IMG/VR virus record: IMGVR_UViG_2802429245_000001
Coordinates: 1 to 12,360 of that record
From: a virus
Lineage: Duplodnaviria; Heunggongvirae; Uroviricota; Caudoviricetes
Length of the DNA: 12,360 nucleotides
Strand: one strand, 5' to 3'
Of this stretch, positions 3,266 to 12,360 are shown one piece after another. The notes below the pieces were generated by a model, which saw only the letters and a program-made list of their open reading frames with translations, was not told the DNA's origin and did no database searches. Within the stretch, counting starts at the first letter, position 1. Every line of letters begins with the position of its first letter. The position numbers and the translations under genes were made by a program.

Positions 3266-3975
3266 CGCGCCCCGTGATTAACGAGTCACAACTCCGGCAG
3301 GTTCGTCGCGCCATCAGAGAGGCAGAACTTCCGCCGGCAAAGGCCAGAAAGCTGTTGGTTCGCATTGCGAAATACGGCCTGATACCGGCTGCACGACGCA
3401 ATGTGAAAGCACAGCGAACACCGGAGGGGGCAGCCTGGGCACCACGAAAAAGACCGGATAAAGCCAGCGGCAGGTATAAAAACAAAATGCTGCTGGGACT
3501 GCCGAAACTGCTGGCCATCAGGGTTGATGGCAGCGGGAAAAGTGTCCGCCTTTTCTTCAAAAAAGGGGATTACAACACCGGCTCTCATGGTGGGGCGGTT
3601 GCGTGGGTGCAACAGCACGGCGCAACCATCAAAGGCCGCGCCACAAAACGCCGGGACAGCGAAGCCATGCGCACCCGTCCCGCCACACGACGGCAGGCAG
3701 AACGCCTTCTTTCTCTGGGCTTTCGCGCCCCCGTCGGCGCGGTCAGCAAAAAAACCGGACGCAGGGGATACAGAAAACCTTCCCTGAAATGGATTATGGA
3801 AAACATGAGTATGGCGCAGGCCGGGCTGGTGATCAGCATTCTGAAAGGCGAGCAGAAAAAACGTGTATGGGAAATCAAAATTCCCTCCCGCGCATTTCTG
3901 GGAGCCAGTAACGCTGAATTTGCCCGCATTCTGGAGGCGCAATTGCGCAGCCTGCATTACGGCGGCACGAGATAA
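3262..3975 (+). CDS. Phage virion morphogenesis / tail completion protein (gpS-like), extended basic form
   Basis: 237-aa ORF whose start overlaps the upstream stop (ATGA at 3262-3265). Central VAWVQQHGATIKG and C-terminal IPSRAFLG resemble conserved motifs of the virion morphogenesis family from recall. The protein is very Arg/Lys-rich. Confidence 0.55.
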   Translation: MTRPVINESQLRQVRRAIREAELPPAKARKLLVRIAKYGLIPAARRNVKAQRTPEGAAWAPRKRPDKASGRYKNKMLLGLPKLLAIRVDGSGKSVRLFFKKGDYNTGSHGGAVAWVQQHGATIKGRATKRRDSEAMRTRPATRRQAERLLSLGFRAPVGAVSKKTGRRGYRKPSLKWIMENMSMAQAGLVISILKGEQKKRVWEIKIPSRAFLGASNAEFARILEAQLRSLHYGGTR

Positions 3976-3994: not shown

Positions 3995-5143
3995 ATGACC
4001 TGGCCATCTGTCACGATCGAACAGTACAACACATTCAGCAGTTCACCGGACGGCGTGGAAAATACACTGCTGTTTGTGGGCAATGCACAAAACAACAAAG
4101 GTAAGGTTCTGCCGGTTAACGCTAACAGCGATCTGGATGAACTGCTGGGAACGAACGCCAGCCCGCTGAAGAATTTCCTTCAGTCCGCACTGACCAATGC
4201 CGGGCAGAACGCCTTTTTCTATGTTGCCGTTCTGCCGGAAGCAGGCAGGGGCAAAGAAGCGACGCCAGCCTGCCAGGCATGGCAGAACGCCATACTGGCG
4301 GCTCAGGAAACTGTTTCAGTTGAAGGCGTGGTGATCACCGAACCGGTCAGCACGAAGGATGACATCAACGCCATACAGGCGTTACGTCAGACCATCATCA
4401 ATAAATATCAGCGCCGCATCTGGTTCATTCTGACCATTGCCGCCAATAACTGCAGCAAAACCTGGGCAGATTACGTTGCTGAACTGACCACGCTACAGGA
4501 AGGCATCGCCGCCCCGCAAATCATGCTGGTTCCGGAAATTTTTGGCTTTGAACCGGGCGTTCTTGCCGGCCGTCTGTGTAACAGCGCCGTCACCATTGCT
4601 GACAGTCCGGCGCGTGTGGCAACCGGGGGCCTGTCCGCACTGAAAACCACTGAACGCCCGAAGGACAGCGCAGGGCAGGCAATTGATCTCGCCACCCTGC
4701 AGGCACTGGCAACCGCCCGCTACAGCGTGCCCATGTGGTATGCCGACTATGACGGCCTTTACTGGGCTGACGGTGTAACACTTGAAGTGGAAGGTGGGGA
4801 CTACAACGTCATTGAGCATGTCCGCATTGCTGATAAGGTGGCGCGCCGCGTGCGGCTGATAGCCATCCCCAAGATTGCAGATCGCTCGCTGAACAGCACG
4901 CCGGGTAGCATTGCCGCACATGAAACGCTGTTTGCCCGCCCACTGCGTGCCATGGCGAAATCCACGCAAATTAACGGCATCACATTTCCGGGAGAAGTGA
5001 AATCGCCCCGGAAAGGCGACGTGGTTATCACCTGGCAGGACGAAAAGACGGTCAGCATCAGCATTGTCGTCCGCCCTTACGCCTGCCCTAAAACCATCAA
5101 AGTGGGCATTCAGCTGGATAAATCTCTGGAGGAAAACGCATGA
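3995..5143 (+). CDS. Putative contractile tail sheath protein (DUF2586-like family, non-P2 type)
   Basis: 382-aa product with SD AGGAG 7 nt upstream of ATG 3995. It sits in the canonical myovirus order sheath - tube - chaperone - tape measure. The track ORF start at 3863 overlaps the previous gene and is rejected. No clear similarity to P2 FI from recall. Confidence 0.55.
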   Translation: MTWPSVTIEQYNTFSSSPDGVENTLLFVGNAQNNKGKVLPVNANSDLDELLGTNASPLKNFLQSALTNAGQNAFFYVAVLPEAGRGKEATPACQAWQNAILAAQETVSVEGVVITEPVSTKDDINAIQALRQTIINKYQRRIWFILTIAANNCSKTWADYVAELTTLQEGIAAPQIMLVPEIFGFEPGVLAGRLCNSAVTIADSPARVATGGLSALKTTERPKDSAGQAIDLATLQALATARYSVPMWYADYDGLYWADGVTLEVEGGDYNVIEHVRIADKVARRVRLIAIPKIADRSLNSTPGSIAAHETLFARPLRAMAKSTQINGITFPGEVKSPRKGDVVITWQDEKTVSISIVVRPYACPKTIKVGIQLDKSLEENA

Positions 5144-5595
5144 CGACCCGCATTAACGGCATGGCGTTTGACACTTTTATCGGTGGAACGGATATCCATG
5201 TGAAAAGCATCTCACTGGACATCAGCGATGAAAGCGCCGTTGCCAAAACCCGTGGCATCCCTGACGGCAAACTGCGCGGCCCTGTCAGTGCCGAAGGTGA
5301 AATCGAAATGAGTACCCGCAGCTTTAACCAGCTCGGGGAAGTGGCTGCTCAGGCGGGATCGTGGCGTGACCTGCCGCCAATGGATTTTGTGTTTTACGCC
5401 AATACGGGAACCGAAGAAATCCGCGTTGAAGCCTTCGGTTGTGAGCTGATGCTTTCCGGCCTGTTAAGCATTGACACCGAGAGCGCAGATCTGACCACGC
5501 ACAAAATCAAGTACGTGGTGGCAAGCCCTGACTTTGTGCGTATCAACGGCGTGCCCGTTCTCTCAGAGAACGACGTGCGCGGACTGATGGGGTGA
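5140..5595 (+). CDS. Putative tail tube protein (DUF2597-like)
   Basis: 151-aa ORF whose start overlaps the sheath stop (ATGA at 5140-5143), with GGAGGA upstream. Size and position between sheath and the chaperone/tape measure genes fit a tube protein. Confidence 0.5.
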   Translation: MTTRINGMAFDTFIGGTDIHVKSISLDISDESAVAKTRGIPDGKLRGPVSAEGEIEMSTRSFNQLGEVAAQAGSWRDLPPMDFVFYANTGTEEIRVEAFGCELMLSGLLSIDTESADLTTHKIKYVVASPDFVRINGVPVLSENDVRGLMG

Positions 5596-5598
5596 ACC

Positions 5599-5895
5599 AT
5601 GCAGGAGCATGAGCGCACCATTATCACTCTGGGCATTCTGGGCGGAATCGCTGCCGCAAGTCGGGTGCTGGCTGGCGCAGAGCCGATTACGTTGCGGTTG
5701 TTTGTGGGCCGAACCCTGCTGGGGAGCGCGCTGGGTGTTTCTGCCGCTGCCCTGCTGGTTCGCTACCCGAATCTTGACCCACTGGCCATTGCCGGCGCAG
5801 GCACCGCAATGGGCGTTGCCGGTTACCAGATTGTTGAAATCTTCCTGCGTCATATGCGCCGGAAGCTGGACGAGAAAGAGAACAAAGAGGAGTAA
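5599..5895 (+). CDS. Holin (3 predicted transmembrane segments, charged C-terminus)
   Basis: 98 aa with three hydrophobic stretches (TIITLGILGGIAAASRVLAG, LRLFVGRTLLGSALGVSAAALLV, LAIAGAGTAMGVAGYQIVEIFL) and a highly charged tail (RHMRRKLDEKENKEE). SD GGGGTGA is upstream of ATG 5599 and the gene lies just upstream of the endolysin. Confidence 0.65.
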   Translation: MQEHERTIITLGILGGIAAASRVLAGAEPITLRLFVGRTLLGSALGVSAAALLVRYPNLDPLAIAGAGTAMGVAGYQIVEIFLRHMRRKLDEKENKEE

Positions 5896-5900
5896 CCGCA

Positions 5901-6008
5901 ATGTTGTCCCGCAGGGAACAAAAAGCCGCTGCCATTGCCTGGAAAATTATCCGGGCACTGTGGTACTGGCTGCGCAAACCTCAGCAACCTCATAAGGAGC
6001 AAAAATGA
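5901..6008 (+). CDS. Small basic amphipathic peptide (35 aa), hypothetical; between holin and endolysin
   Basis: ATG 5901 is preceded by a strong SD, AGAGGAG, with an 8-nt spacer. Translation is MLSRREQKAAAIAWKIIRALWYWLRKPQQPHKEQK. The stop TGA 6006-6008 overlaps the endolysin start ATG 6005-6007. It is below the size cutoff of the ORF track. Confidence 0.35.
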   Translation: MLSRREQKAAAIAWKIIRALWYWLRKPQQPHKEQK

Positions 6009-6346
6009 AACTCTCCGATAAGCAACAACAATTTACCGTCATGATCGGAAAACTCATCCAGTTTGCCCATCAGCGCGGTTATGGCCTGACGTTCGGTGAG
6101 GCGTACCGCACGCCAGAACAGGCAAAACTCAACGCACAAAAGGGATCCGGCATTGCCAACAGCCTGCACTGCCAGCGGCTGGCCGTGGATTTTAATCTGT
6201 TTATTAACGGTGAATATCAGACCCGCACAGAGGCCTACCGCGAGCTGGGCGAGTACTGGGAATCCCTTGGTGGCGCATGGGGCGGTCGTTTTAAAAACCG
6301 CCCGGATGGCAATCATTTCAGCCTTGAGCACGACGGCGTGCGCTGA
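6005..6346 (+). CDS. Endolysin, peptidase M15 (LAS-type zinc metallopeptidase, probable L-alanyl-D-glutamate endopeptidase)
   Basis: 113 aa with a perfect SD AAGGAG 4 nt upstream of ATG 6005. Metal-binding motifs SLHCQRLAVDF (H-x6-D) and DGNHFSLEHDG resemble T5-type M15 endolysins from recall. No signal peptide or SAR segment. Confidence 0.82.
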   Translation: MKLSDKQQQFTVMIGKLIQFAHQRGYGLTFGEAYRTPEQAKLNAQKGSGIANSLHCQRLAVDFNLFINGEYQTRTEAYRELGEYWESLGGAWGGRFKNRPDGNHFSLEHDGVR

Positions 6347-6353
6347 TTTTACG

Positions 6354-6383
6354 CTTAATAAGCCTTCCTGCAGGCTTATTAAG
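6354..6383 (+). terminator. Stem-loop (11-12 bp stem) immediately after the endolysin stop; possible attenuator or terminator without a strong U-tract
   Basis: CTTAATAAGCC (6354-6364) pairs with GGCTTATTAAG (6373-6383), and the loop region contains the palindrome CCTGCAGG. It is followed by CCCTCTTATTCTTGAC rather than a clean T-run. Confidence 0.3.
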
Positions 6384-6410
6384 CCCTCTTATTCTTGACT
6401 TTAAAAGGAA

Positions 6411-6704
6411 ATGATGATGAACGATAAAAACACCCAGACTACCGCAGAGAACACCATCACTTTACAGGTCGGCGAGCATGAACTGACGTTTATCCCGACC
6501 GTAAAAGCCTACAACGACCTGCAGAACGACTTCATGCCGGATAACAAAATCGCGCCGCTGAAAAACTACCTGCGCCGTATCGTGATTAAAGAGCACCGCG
6601 ATCTGCTGAACCAGCTGCTGGAAAAACCAGGAATGCCGGCCAGCCTGGCAACAGCCGTGAATAACGAGTTTGTGCCGGAAGTGGAAATCACCGTAAAAAA
6701 ATAA
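6411..6704 (+). CDS. Tail assembly chaperone (P2 gpE-like / lambda gpG analogue)
   Basis: 97-aa ORF directly upstream of the tape measure gene, ending ...EITVKK* at a run of A residues. Three tandem ATGs lie at 6411/6414/6417 and the AAAGGA SD favours the second or third. Confidence 0.7.
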   Translation: MMMNDKNTQTTAENTITLQVGEHELTFIPTVKAYNDLQNDFMPDNKIAPLKNYLRRIVIKEHRDLLNQLLEKPGMPASLATAVNNEFVPEVEITVKK

Positions 6705-6892
6705 AAAGCCATCTGGGAGCCATTGATCGCAATGACCTTACCCGGATGCTGATTCTGCGCCGCCACTGGCTGCCCGGCGAGGATGACTCGCCGCAGTCAC
6801 TGGCTGCCGCCGTCTGGCTGGATAACCACTACTGGGAAAATATGAGCATCGCCGTCAATAACGGCATTATCCGTGCTTTTAAGGGATCGTAA
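6411..6892 (+). CDS. Tail assembly chaperone, -1 frameshift-extended isoform (gpE+E' / G-T analogue), predicted ~160 aa
   Basis: The -1 frame is open from the slippery site to TAA 6890-6892, which overlaps the tape measure ATG (TAATG). The extension reads IKSHLGAIDRNDLTRMLILRRHWLPGEDDSPQSLAAAVWLDNHYWENMSIAVNNGIIRAFKGS. Recoding at this position is conserved in the chaperones of long-tailed phages. Confidence 0.55.
6695..6701 (+). other. Candidate -1 programmed ribosomal frameshift slippery heptamer A_AAA_AAA, followed immediately by the zero-frame stop TAA
   Basis: Zero-frame codons are GTA AAA AAA TAA. The heptamer AAAAAAA at 6695-6701 allows both lysyl-tRNAs to re-pair in the -1 frame, after which the reading frame continues ATA AAA AGC and onward. 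Confidence 0.5.
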
Positions 6893-11215: not shown

Positions 11216-12360
11216 GCACGATTATTACTGAACAGTACGAACACTGGTGTGCGAATCAGCTCATCAGTGGAAAACCTGCGCGCCCGGATACATTTGTTTT
11301 TGCATATATTCCGGGACAGGATGAATCCGCAGAGATCCCCCGCGATGAGATACTCCCTGATGAATCCATGATTCAGTATCGTGCGCCGGTCACCCAGTAC
11401 GGCCTCCTGTCGCCGAACGCGACCGCGTTTTCCATCATTCTGGACACGACAGTCGGCGACTTCGAATACAACTGGATCGGTCTGCTGAACGAAGAAAGCG
11501 GCGTGCTCTGCATGATTGCGCACACACCTCGTCAGCAAAAAATTAAAACAGCGAACGGCGTGCAGGGAAACAACCTGATCCGCACATTTTCCATGGAGTT
11601 TGACGGCGCAGCCGCAGCAATGCATATCGATGTCAGTGCTGATGTCTGGCAGATTGATTTCACTGCACGCCTTGCAGGAATGGATGAGGCCCGCCGGCTG
11701 CTGGCGTTTGATCACTACGGTGAAGCCGCTTTTCTGGGGGATGGTTTTCAGGTCAGCTATCAGGATGGTACCGCTACTGTTGCCGCCGGCGTGGGTTATG
11801 TGGGAGGTCTGCGCGTCAGTCTGCGCGAACCTTACAGCCTGCCGGCTGCGGTCGGGGATACCATTTGGATTGATGCAAGCTGGCAGGGATTTGTTACCGG
11901 CGAATGGAATACCGTTTTTACGTTCTGCGCCCGCCAGGAACATGCGTCCTATACAGACGGTAACGGCTTCCGACACTTTGTCGCGCCACTTGCGAAACTG
12001 ACATCAGAAGGCTTACAGGATTTACGTCCACAGACGCCCGATGAAGAACAAAGCAATGCACTGGCAGAGCACGAAAAATCCCGCCGTCATCCGGACGCAA
12101 CACTGAAGGAGAAAGGCTTTGCGCAGTACAGCAACTCCACCGACAGCGACGCAGAAGACCGCGCCGCCACATCAAAGGCAGTAAAAGCCGCAATGGATAA
12201 GGCAAAAGGCGCTGTTGAGCGTGGCGGCGACACCATGACCGGGGAACTGAAAATCCGTGGTGTTAATGCGCTGAGGATTTTCAACGAAGCCTTTGGTCTG
12301 ATTTTTCGTCGTTCGGAAGAGTGCCTGCACCTTATCCCTACCAGTGAAGGTCAGGGCGAG
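11212..12360 (+). CDS. Tail fibre protein, N-terminal part (3'-truncated by the window end)
   Basis: ATG 11212 overlaps the upstream stop (ATGA). My manual translation shows no stop through 12360 (383 codons). It contains the conserved tail-fibre motif AEHEKSRRHPDATLKEKGFAQYSNSTDSDAEDRAATSKAVKAAMD, similar to P2 gpH / lambdoid Stf, followed by GDTMTGEL. Confidence 0.82.
   Translation, partial: MSTIITEQYEHWCANQLISGKPARPDTFVFAYIPGQDESAEIPRDEILPDESMIQYRAPVTQYGLLSPNATAFSIILDTTVGDFEYNWIGLLNEESGVLCMIAHTPRQQKIKTANGVQGNNLIRTFSMEFDGAAAAMHIDVSADVWQIDFTARLAGMDEARRLLAFDHYGEAAFLGDGFQVSYQDGTATVAAGVGYVGGLRVSLREPYSLPAAVGDTIWIDASWQGFVTGEWNTVFTFCARQEHASYTDGNGFRHFVAPLAKLTSEGLQDLRPQTPDEEQSNALAEHEKSRRHPDATLKEKGFAQYSNSTDSDAEDRAATSKAVKAAMDKAKGAVERGGDTMTGELKIRGVNALRIFNEAFGLIFRRSEECLHLIPTSEGQGE

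What the first reader, a model, noticed from the sequence alone, without database searches (positions are those of the whole stretch)
5901..6008. Untracked 35-codon ORF with a strong RBS encoding a highly basic, Trp-rich amphipathic peptide
ATG 5901 follows an AGAGGAG SD at near-ideal spacing and its stop overlaps the endolysin start, implying translational coupling inside the lysis cassette. The peptide (MLSRREQKAAAIAWKIIRALWYWLRKPQQPHKEQK) carries a net charge of about +7 and has an amphipathic AIAWKIIRALWYWL core. It could be a membrane-active lysis accessory such as an antiholin or lysis regulator, or simply a coupling leader. It has no Cys, so it is not a lipoprotein o-spanin.
Basis: seen in the sequence. 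Interest (0 to 1): 0.5.

Follow-up and report, generated by a model that had tools for sequence, protein, structure and literature searches.

The report
Candidate spanin-replacing cationic lysis peptide
A real, conserved 35-codon gene between the holin and endolysin genes of an E. coli P2/HP1-like prophage encodes a cationic, Trp-rich helical peptide found only in the one phage lineage that has lost its outer-membrane-breaking spanin genes, so it is a testable candidate for a second family of "disruptin" lysis peptides.

Summary
The ORF (5901-6008, +) is exactly as described. It has a GAGGAG Shine-Dalgarno 8 nt upstream, and its stop overlaps the endolysin ATG. It is a genuine gene. Three diverged subtypes keep an ORF in this slot (peptide identity 60% and 24%). 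dN/dS is 0.13-0.22 in frame and about 0.8-3 out of frame. All 41 complete E. coli genomes keep its length.

Context decides the interpretation. In about 60 homologous Enterobacterales cassettes the holin stop overlaps the endolysin start, and an i-/o-spanin pair follows the endolysin. Only one nested clade (this window, E. albertii, two further subtypes) has the 106-118 nt peptide gene. That same clade lacks the spanins, and none was found elsewhere in the 48-kb prophage region.

The peptide is +7, forms a single predicted helix (residues 4-25), and has no transmembrane segment, signal peptide or lipobox. Its physico-chemical values match phiKT gp28, the only proven disruptin, whose holin belongs to the same Pfam family. 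There is no sequence homology to gp28.

Best reading: a spanin-substituting outer-membrane disruptor (confidence about 0.45). Function is untested, and the gain/loss correlation rests on one evolutionary event. Rivals are a holin-timing modulator or a coupling relay.

The parts
5599..5895 (+). Holin, 98 aa, Pfam PF04550 (Phage holin family 2), PHROG 175
   Evidence: Pfam E = 5.5e-28 and PHROG holin E = 1.3e-32. Hydrophobic segments present. Same Pfam family as phiKT holin gp29.
5886..5892 (+). Shine-Dalgarno AGAGGAG of the small ORF, inside the last holin codons, 8 nt before the ATG
   Evidence: Read directly. The equivalent GGAGGA in L024 and GAAGGA in L107 sit at similar spacing.
5901..6008 (+). 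Small ORF, 35 aa, cationic (+7), Trp-rich peptide; candidate outer-membrane disruptor
   Evidence: ORF seen. pN/pS is 0.22 among 16 haplotypes, against 0.99 and 0.93 in the other frames. dN/dS against subtype L107 is 0.21 overall and 0.13 for codons 2-28, Fisher p = 2.4e-4. An ORF occupies the same slot in L107, L024, L105 and L130.
5910..5975 (+). Codons 4-25: predicted single amphipathic alpha-helix (wide hydrophobic face I12, I16, I17, L20, W14, W21, W23, L24; narrow cationic face K8, K15, R18, R25, K26)
   Evidence: AlphaFold2 gives a helix at residues 4-25, with block pLDDT 77/90/71. Helical wheel. Core residues are near-invariant across 21 alleles, while polar-face position 22 varies Y/H/R/C. 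No TMD: maximum KD19 0.41, longest uncharged run 6 aa.
5994..5999 (+). AAGGAG Shine-Dalgarno of the endolysin, embedded in ORF codons 32-33 (K-E)
   Evidence: Read. It explains the invariance of the C-terminal KEQK.
6005..6346 (+). Endolysin, 113 aa, Peptidase_M15_4; no signal or SAR sequence, so holin-dependent
   Evidence: Pfam E = 3.2e-11 and PHROG endolysin. N-terminus is not hydrophobic. 78-81% identical to the endolysins of the closest spanin-bearing relatives.
6347..6410 (+). 64-nt endolysin-to-TAC junction where relatives carry about 475-515 nt with the i-/o-spanin genes; holds a 13-bp stem-loop at 6353-6384
   Evidence: Distances. Fold is -21 kcal/mol, z = -3.5, and the scan flags it as terminator-like. 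A comparable inverted repeat, with differing bases in its arms, is read by eye in the printed L107 and L024 sequences; it was not folded or scored there.
6411..6704 (+). Tail assembly chaperone (PF10963); downstream boundary of the lysis cassette
   Evidence: Pfam E = 1.6e-26. PGAP annotates the start at the position equivalent to 6417.

Best explanation
The ORF is a genuine late gene of a P2/HP1-like (Peduoviridae-type) E. coli prophage. It is translated in a chain with the holin and the endolysin. Its product is a 35-aa peptide with net charge +7. It forms one amphipathic, Trp-rich helix followed by a short disordered basic tail.

Proposed mechanism (inferred, not shown): the peptide is made in the cytoplasm without any export signal and binds membranes through its wide hydrophobic/Trp face. 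When the PF04550 holin opens the inner membrane, the cytoplasmic M15 endolysin degrades the murein. The peptide then reaches and weakens the outer membrane through electrostatic binding to anionic lipid/LPS plus interfacial Trp insertion, so the envelope bursts. It would thereby do the job of the i-/o-spanin pair that this lineage has lost. This is the 'disruptin' mode shown experimentally for phiKT gp28.

Shown here: the gene is real and constrained; its place in the cassette; the absence of spanins; the physico-chemical match to gp28. Inferred: outer-membrane disruption itself.
For: (1) Coding constraint. pN/pS is 0.22 in frame against 0.99 and 0.93 off frame among 16 haplotypes. dN/dS is 0.13-0.21 against subtype L107 with synonymous sites near saturation (pS 0.62-0.66, like the holin), Fisher p = 2.4e-4. 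All four indels seen are in frame. 41/41 complete E. coli genomes keep the 181-nt span. Only the sense frame is open with a start and SD in all three subtypes.

(2) The phenotype is preserved despite fast sequence change. The three subtypes are 35-41 aa, +7 to +9, with muH 0.61-0.68 and a shared W-x-[IL]-[IL]-R-x-L core, at 60% and 24% identity.

(3) Complementary distribution. In about 60 related cassettes the holin overlaps the endolysin (-4 or -14 nt), and an i-spanin plus an overlapping lipobox o-spanin fill 475-515 nt before the TAC gene. Only WIN/L027/L107/L024 have the 106-118 nt insert, and they have just 64-84 nt after the endolysin. These four form one clade nested among spanin-bearing cassettes.

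(4) No spanin elsewhere. HMMs of the family's i-/o-spanins find nothing in the 48-kb prophage region, while the control hits at 1e-48 and 8e-45. There is no credible lipobox ORF, no spanin PHROG among 10 prophage proteins that lacked an informative annotation, and no other late membrane protein.

(5) Match to the one proven disruptin. phiKT gp28 is 56 aa, +7, muH 0.68, hydrophobic fraction 0.45, encoded between the endolysin and the holin. phiKT's holin is also PF04550. The authors' candidate criteria (<80 aa, charge at least +4, spaninless genome) are met.

(6) The endolysin has no signal or SAR sequence, so a hole-forming holin is needed, and such holes would also pass a 4-kDa peptide (the last step is inference).
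Against: No functional data exist. There is no sequence similarity to gp28 (z about 0), so the link is by analogy only.

The gain-of-peptide/loss-of-spanin correlation is a single phylogenetic event, so it could be coincidence. One short MAG contig (L055) lacks spanins and also lacks the small ORF, showing that spanin loss can occur without it, although that element may be decaying.

Amphipathicity is only moderate (top 5% of shuffles). Constraint is weaker than on the neighbouring genes (0.13-0.22 against 0.03-0.08). Nonsense alleles that trim the C-terminal tail circulate: Q34* on 182 contigs and Q28* once.

No isolated phage in 50,697 records carries this cassette, so lytic competence of the prophage is unproven.
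Confidence: 0.45

Rival explanations
1. Holin-level lysis regulator. The cationic amphipathic helix binds the cytoplasmic face of the inner membrane or the holin's charged C-terminal tail. It advances or delays holin triggering (antiholin or pro-holin, lysis-timing factor). Outer-membrane rupture in this lineage is then left to turgor and shear.
For: The gene sits immediately after the holin and is translationally chained to it. It is membrane-active in character and has no export signal. Small accessory lysis factors acting at the holin step are known, for example Lcc6 of LambdaSo. The disruptin paper itself notes that such peptides could perturb the PMF and trigger holins. L055 shows a spaninless cassette can exist without the peptide.
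Against: This reading does not predict why the gene occurs only in the spanin-less clade. The peptide has no TMD and no significant similarity to the holin (z 2.1-2.3), unlike dual-start or TMD-bearing antiholins. None of about 60 related cassettes with the same holin family needs such a factor.
Confidence: 0.25
2. Translational-coupling relay. After a DNA insertion separated the holin from the endolysin, an ORF of any sequence was retained only to carry ribosomes from the holin stop to the endolysin start. The peptide itself would be irrelevant.
For: In all relatives the holin stop overlaps the endolysin start. The inserted ORF restores an unbroken chain: 5-nt gap or ATGA/GTGA overlap upstream, ATGA or 14-nt overlap downstream. 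L024 has only a weak SD for its endolysin.
Against: The amino-acid sequence is constrained: dN/dS 0.13-0.22, replacements mostly conservative (I/V/L, R/K, E/D), and charge and helix pattern kept at 24% identity. In the window the endolysin has its own strong AAGGAG. The circulating Q28* and Q34* alleles break exact stop-start overlap yet persist.
Confidence: 0.08
3. A functional small protein unrelated to host lysis, for example a moron-type toxin, an antimicrobial peptide released at lysis against competitors, or a superinfection-exclusion factor, that merely rides in the late operon.
For: The coding constraint shows some function, but not which one. The composition is AMP-like. The peptide has no match in Pfam or PHROGs, and no meaningful match among PDB sequences (best E about 0.1).
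Against: The position between the holin and the endolysin, with overlapping stop/start codons, is typical of lysis genes. The gene is found in no other genomic context in E. coli genomes, phages or plasmids. It co-occurs with spanin loss.
Confidence: 0.1
4. A chance ORF in a non-coding spacer, i.e. not a gene.
For: A 35-codon open frame in 109 nt is not rare, and other frames of the spacer are also open. RefSeq does not call it.
Against: There is a frame-specific excess of synonymous change. A start codon plus SD is conserved in three subtypes. Indels are all in frame and length is invariant in 41 genomes.
Confidence: 0.03

Closest known systems
Disruptin gp28 of Escherichia phage phiKT (Holt et al., bioRxiv 10.1101/515445; cited as Holt et al. 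2022 in PMC12819732)
   Same: Both are small (<80 aa) peptides with net charge +7. Both have a predicted amphipathic helix, no TMD, no signal and no lipobox. Hydrophobic fraction is similar (0.46 vs 0.45), as is muH (0.62 vs 0.68). Both are encoded inside a three-gene lysis cassette next to a PF04550 holin and a cytoplasmic endolysin, in a genome with no spanin.
   Different: There is no detectable sequence similarity. This peptide is shorter (35 vs 56 aa) and Trp-rich (3 W vs 1). Gene order is holin-peptide-endolysin rather than endolysin-peptide-holin. The host element is a temperate P2/HP1-like myovirus prophage, not a virulent T7-like podophage. The endolysin is an M15 peptidase rather than a T4-type lysozyme. 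Function is untested here.
Two-component spanins (i-spanin/o-spanin, Rz/Rz1-like, PHROG 1152) of the sister cassettes, e.g. Escherichia phage ESSI2_ev239 (Peduoviridae, Evevirus)
   Same: They belong to the same lysis cassette in homologous phages. The spanins are the component whose role the peptide is proposed to fill.
   Different: Spanins have an N-terminal TMD (i-) and a lipobox Cys (o-), are 95-130 aa, and lie after the endolysin. The peptide has none of these features and lies before the endolysin. There is no homology.
Cationic alpha-helical and Trp-rich antimicrobial peptides (LL-37; lactoferricin/tritrpticin-type Trp/Arg peptides). The second group is recalled from general knowledge, not tested.
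   Same: Size (35-37 aa), charge (+6 to +7), and a single amphipathic helix with a basic face.
   Different: The hydrophobic moment is lower than LL-37's (0.62 vs 0.89). The peptide is made intracellularly by a phage, and no activity data exist.
Small accessory lysis proteins acting at the holin step (Lcc6 of Shewanella phage LambdaSo, bioRxiv 10.1101/2024.01.23.576932; antiholins)
   Same: A short protein encoded in or near the lysis cassette, outside the holin/endolysin/spanin triad.
   Different: Lcc6 and the classical antiholins are transmembrane proteins. This peptide has no TMD. LambdaSo keeps its spanins, whereas this lineage does not.

Membership tests
Disruptin (functional class founded by phiKT gp28) | Small (<80 aa) peptide with net charge of at least +4 | tested here: met
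   35 aa, +7. Subtypes are 39 aa/+8 and 41 aa/+9. The criterion is quoted.
Disruptin (functional class founded by phiKT gp28) | Predicted amphipathic alpha-helix; no TMD, signal sequence or lipobox | tested here: met
   AF2 helix at residues 4-25. muH is 0.62 against 0.68 for gp28. Maximum KD19 is 0.41 and there is no Cys.
Disruptin (functional class founded by phiKT gp28) | Encoded in the lysis cassette next to the holin and endolysin | tested here: met
   Between the PF04550 holin and the M15 endolysin, with adjacent or overlapping stop/start codons. This holds in all three subtypes.
Disruptin (functional class founded by phiKT gp28) | The phage genome lacks any two-component or unimolecular spanin | tested here: met
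   Whole prophage region L026: spanin HMMs negative with a positive control, no credible lipobox ORF, no spanin PHROG among 10 prophage proteins that lacked an informative annotation.
Disruptin (functional class founded by phiKT gp28) | Sequence homology to gp28 | tested here: not met
   Local alignment z between -0.6 and 0.3. The class is defined by function and gp28 has no homologues beyond a near-identical phage, so this does not exclude functional membership.
Disruptin (functional class founded by phiKT gp28) | [quoted passage not shown] | not testable with these tools
   Requires the plasmid/lysogen assay described.
Disruptin (functional class founded by phiKT gp28) | Tight membrane association, and antimicrobial activity of the synthetic peptide | not testable with these tools
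   Requires fractionation, MIC and MBC assays.
o-spanin / u-spanin | N-terminal lipoprotein signal with a lipobox Cys | tested here: not met
   No Cys in the window peptide. Cys appears only as a sporadic substitution in some alleles.
i-spanin | N-terminal TMD plus a periplasmic coiled-coil domain of about 90-130 aa | tested here: not met
   35 aa, no TMD. No significant similarity to 51 family i-spanins.
Holin / antiholin | At least one transmembrane domain, or an alternative-start product of the holin gene | tested here: not met
   Different reading frame from the holin. No TMD. Similarity to holins is not significant.
Bona fide protein-coding gene | Frame-specific purifying selection and a conserved ORF, start and RBS in diverged homologues | tested here: met

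The most novel reading that the evidence does not exclude
This peptide family (35-41 aa; core AAIAWKI[IL]R[AT]LW-x-WL) is a second disruptin family unrelated in sequence to gp28, and the first in a temperate P2/HP1-like phage. It arose in a lineage where it replaced an ancestral Rz/Rz1-type spanin pair. If so, spanin-bearing and peptide-bearing sister cassettes with 78-81% identical endolysins form a natural swap experiment on how phages breach the outer membrane. It would also supply a compact Trp-rich membrane-active peptide scaffold.
Probability: 0.42. Interest if true: 0.72.

Novelty: new member of a known kind. Interest (0 to 1): 0.6.

Why it matters
About 13-15% of phages of Gram-negative hosts have no recognisable spanin (PMC6139136; 10.1101/515445). 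As of 2026 only one disruptin has been demonstrated. Whether spaninless phages generally use such peptides was then called an open question, because the peptides are too diverse to predict (PMC12819732).

Here comparative genomics isolates a single candidate without guesswork. It is the only gene gained in the only clade that lost the spanins, inside an otherwise collinear cassette, in E. coli. The lambda Rz/Rz1 complementation assay can therefore test it directly.

If confirmed, it would show that spanin-to-disruptin replacement happens in nature within one phage family. It would give a second sequence family for building predictors. It would also flag a gene that RefSeq annotation misses in every complete genome carrying it.

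Tried and rejected
- **Peptide homology searches.** Pfam, PHROGs, Rfam and PDB-sequence searches gave nothing meaningful.
- **Other collections.** tblastn of the peptide against 50,697 phage records and 72,556 plasmids gave no match. Megablast of the cassette and of the whole window against phages found no isolated phage with this cassette.
- **Profile search.** An HMM search of 1.84 billion representatives found one new relative (P0011) plus a spurious repetitive 1059-aa hit (P0010), which was rejected.
- **More loci.** Metagenome and further viral scans for extra subtypes returned only loci already seen.
- **Origin of the insert.** No significant protein or DNA similarity to the holin C-termini, the i-/o-spanins or the deleted spanin region, and no repeat elsewhere in the window. 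Origin is unknown.
- **Possible hidden o-spanin.** A 43-aa ORF with 'LSTTAC' overlaps the endolysin 3' end (window 6267-6398). It was rejected: the motif is a by-product of the conserved endolysin C-terminus in another frame, only 6-19 residues follow the Cys, and no i-spanin partner exists.
- **Tat or Sec signal.** The SRRE motif is not conserved (SHK, TDRQ in other alleles) and the h-region is interrupted by charges.
- **Antisense ORFs as the source of constraint.** The two antisense frames whose codon positions could mimic the in-frame signal each carry stops in at least one subtype.
- **L024-type cassette.** Absent from complete E. coli genomes.

Full report
**Observation.** The window carries the late morphogenesis region of a P2/HP1-like prophage. 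The gene order is:
- sheath (DUF2586)
- tube (Phage_HP1_Orf24, 5140-5595)
- holin (PF04550, 5599-5895)
- the 35-codon ORF (5901-6008)
- M15_4 endolysin (6005-6346)
- tail assembly chaperone (6411-6704)
- DUF6890
- tape measure

AGAGGAG lies 8 nt upstream of the ATG. The stop overlaps the endolysin start as ATGA. The peptide is MLSRREQKAAAIAWKIIRALWYWLRKPQQPHKEQK, with net charge +7, three Trp and no Cys.

The same DNA is present in 41 of 5,426 complete E. coli genomes, always on the chromosome. In STEC711 the prophage lies between flk and pdxB. RefSeq annotates nothing in the 109-nt gap in any of these genomes. The exact peptide nevertheless occurs on at least 1000 contigs, and some GenBank/UniProt records list it as a hypothetical protein.

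**Is it a gene?** On its own, a 35-codon ORF in this spacer is not remarkable, and other frames are also open. The comparative evidence is what counts.

Among 24 closely related cassettes (16 haplotypes), pN/pS is 0.22 in the ORF frame. It is 0.99 and 0.93 in the two other frames. The holin gives 0.03 and the endolysin 0.08.

A profile search of 1.84 billion proteins found a diverged relative (P0011, 39 aa). Its contig has the same synteny. Against that subtype the holin is 83% identical, the endolysin 95% and the peptide 60%. Synonymous sites are near saturation. dN/dS is 0.21 overall and 0.13 for codons 2-28, against 0.78 and 3.3 off frame (Fisher p = 2.4e-4).

A third subtype (L024/L105/L130; holin 69-71% identical by the two alignments used, endolysin 86%) has a 41-aa GTG-initiated ORF in the same slot. 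It is only 24% identical, but it is again +9, helical-amphipathic and shares W-x-[IL]-[IL]-R-x-L.

Further points:
- Every indel seen is a multiple of three: an I12 deletion, a QQP duplication and a QQP deletion.
- All 41 complete genomes keep the 181-nt span unchanged in length.
- Nonsense alleles exist, but only in the C-terminal tail: Q34* on 182 contigs and Q28* once.
- The two antisense frames whose codon positions could mimic the in-frame signal each carry stops in at least one subtype.

I conclude with high confidence that this is a translated, selected small gene that evolves faster than its neighbours.

**What the peptide looks like.** AlphaFold2 predicts a single helix at residues 4-25, with core pLDDT about 90, and a disordered tail. 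The helix has a wide hydrophobic/Trp face and a narrow Lys/Arg face.

muH is 0.62, which is top 5% of shuffles but well below LL-37's 0.89. There is no TMD (maximum KD19 0.41, longest uncharged run 6 residues), no signal peptide and no lipobox.

Across 21 alleles the hydrophobic-face residues are invariant or change conservatively. The polar-face position 22 varies freely as Y/H/R/C.

**Context: the decisive observation.** I retrieved 78 loci encoding homologous endolysins from one genome per species. I measured the junctions in each.

In about 60 Enterobacterales cassettes that have both the PF04550 holin and the TAC gene, two things hold. The holin stop overlaps the endolysin start (-4 or -14 nt). 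The 475-515 nt between the endolysin and TAC hold an i-spanin (N-terminal TMD, 109-132 aa) and an overlapping o-spanin (lipobox LS[AG]C). This is the arrangement annotated in ESSI-2-like Peduoviridae.

Only the window, E. albertii (L027), L107 and L024/L105/L130 differ. They have 106-118 nt between the holin and the endolysin. The same loci have just 64-84 nt between the endolysin and TAC, with no spanin.

On a holin+endolysin tree these loci form one clade nested among spanin-bearing cassettes. The ancestral state is therefore holin-endolysin-spanins, and the clade is derived: spanins lost, peptide gene gained.

Spanins are not hidden elsewhere:
- HMMs built from 51 i- and 48 o-spanins of the family find nothing in the 48-kb STEC711 region (prophage plus flanking host genes). 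They hit the control locus at 1e-48 and 8e-45.
- A lipobox scan gives no credible candidate.
- The 10 prophage proteins that lacked an informative annotation match no spanin PHROG.
- The only late-operon membrane proteins are the holin and the tape measure.

**Mechanism proposed.** The endolysin has no export signal, so lysis needs holin holes. The only component that distinguishes this spaninless clade from its spanin-bearing sisters is the cationic amphipathic peptide.

This is the configuration shown experimentally for phiKT, whose genome has no lipoprotein gene. [quoted passage not shown]

I extracted gp28 and found its charge, hydrophobic fraction and hydrophobic moment to be nearly the same as those of the present peptides. 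There is no sequence similarity. The phiKT holin gp29 belongs to the same Pfam family as the holin here (E = 2.4e-9; 29% identity).

I therefore propose that the peptide is a disruptin-like outer-membrane disruptor. It would be released to, or pre-bound at, the envelope and would rupture the outer membrane once the murein is gone. The steps from 'cationic helix' to 'outer-membrane disruption' are inference.

**Caveats and rivals.**
- The gain/loss correlation is one evolutionary event.
- A short MAG contig (L055) has lost the spanins without having the ORF.
- No cultured phage carries this cassette.
- Constraint on the peptide is moderate.

A holin-level timing role (antiholin or pro-holin) fits the position and the membrane-active character. 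It does not explain the exclusive association with spanin loss.

A pure coupling-relay ORF fits the conserved stop/start chaining. It is contradicted by the amino-acid-level constraint and by the endolysin's own strong SD.

A chance ORF is essentially excluded.

The origin of the insert is unknown. It shows no similarity to holin tails, to spanins, to the deleted region or to anything else in the window.

**Novelty.** The peptide family is narrow: E. coli/E. albertii prophages plus one metagenome contig. It belongs to no curated family and is unannotated in RefSeq. If the proposed function holds, it would be a second, non-homologous member of the disruptin class and the first in a temperate myovirus. 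Spanin-bearing sister cassettes would serve as natural controls. The field currently regards the means of outer-membrane disruption in spaninless phages as open and disruptins as hard to predict. This candidate is directly testable in the established lambda system.

Noticed in passing
window 6353-6384 (and L107 about 4455-4490; L024 about 3777-3810): A perfect 13-bp stem-loop (GCTTAATAAGCCT/AGGCTTATTAAGC, -21 kcal/mol, z -3.5) lies directly after the endolysin stop, where relatives carry the spanin genes. A comparable inverted repeat, with different bases in its arms, is visible in the printed L107 and L024 sequences (not folded there), and it is partly disrupted in L105. It could be a terminator/attenuator or an mRNA-stabilising element ahead of the tail genes, or a deletion scar.
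   Followed up: partly
L055 (MAG contig JAVBKE010000038.1, 2.8 kb), 1040-1730: An independent spanin-less version of the same cassette. The holin overlaps the endolysin and an AT-rich 75-nt spacer runs to TAC. It has no small ORF and no spanins. It is labelled 'Bacillales' but is clearly Enterobacterales-like phage DNA.
   Followed up: partly
window 6267-6398 (+), within the 100-aa ORF 6096-6398: An alternative-frame ORF overlaps the endolysin 3' end with a pseudo-lipobox (AIISALSTTAC). The motif recurs in L024 only because it mirrors the conserved endolysin C-terminus. It is too short after the Cys to be an o-spanin.
   Followed up: yes
window 6746-6892 (+): A 48-aa DUF6890/PHROG 7050 ORF lies between the tail assembly chaperone and the tape measure, and its stop abuts the tape-measure start. 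It is conserved in all related loci. It may correspond to the frameshift-extension part of the chaperone pair (as in P2 E/E+E') rather than an independent gene.
   Followed up: no
L131 (phiKT JN882298) 22283-22666: The holin gp29 of phiKT, the only phage with a proven disruptin, is a PF04550 'Phage holin family 2' protein, like the holin of this window (29% identity). GenBank still labels gp28 as a 'hypothetical OmpW family transmembrane protein'.
   Followed up: yes
window 12182-12360: The 3' end of the window (tail-fibre region) is 94-98% identical to tail-fibre genes of unrelated phages (phiP27, Rac-SA53, and an Actinobacillus phage record). This indicates mosaic exchange of the fibre tip.
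   Followed up: no
L026 6429-7502 and 38229-38342 (E. coli STEC711; outside the window): A Hok/Gef toxin gene and a TMD-containing DUF4875 gene sit at the tail-fibre end of the prophage. A 37-aa hydrophobic ORF lies in the early region. None is spanin-like.
   Followed up: partly
window 5609-5995 (+): A 128-aa ORF in the endolysin's reading frame runs through the whole holin gene and most of the small ORF. The holin region shows very strong constraint in the holin frame only, with off-frame pN/pS of 3.5-4.9, so this is most likely a GC-rich chance ORF.
   Followed up: partly
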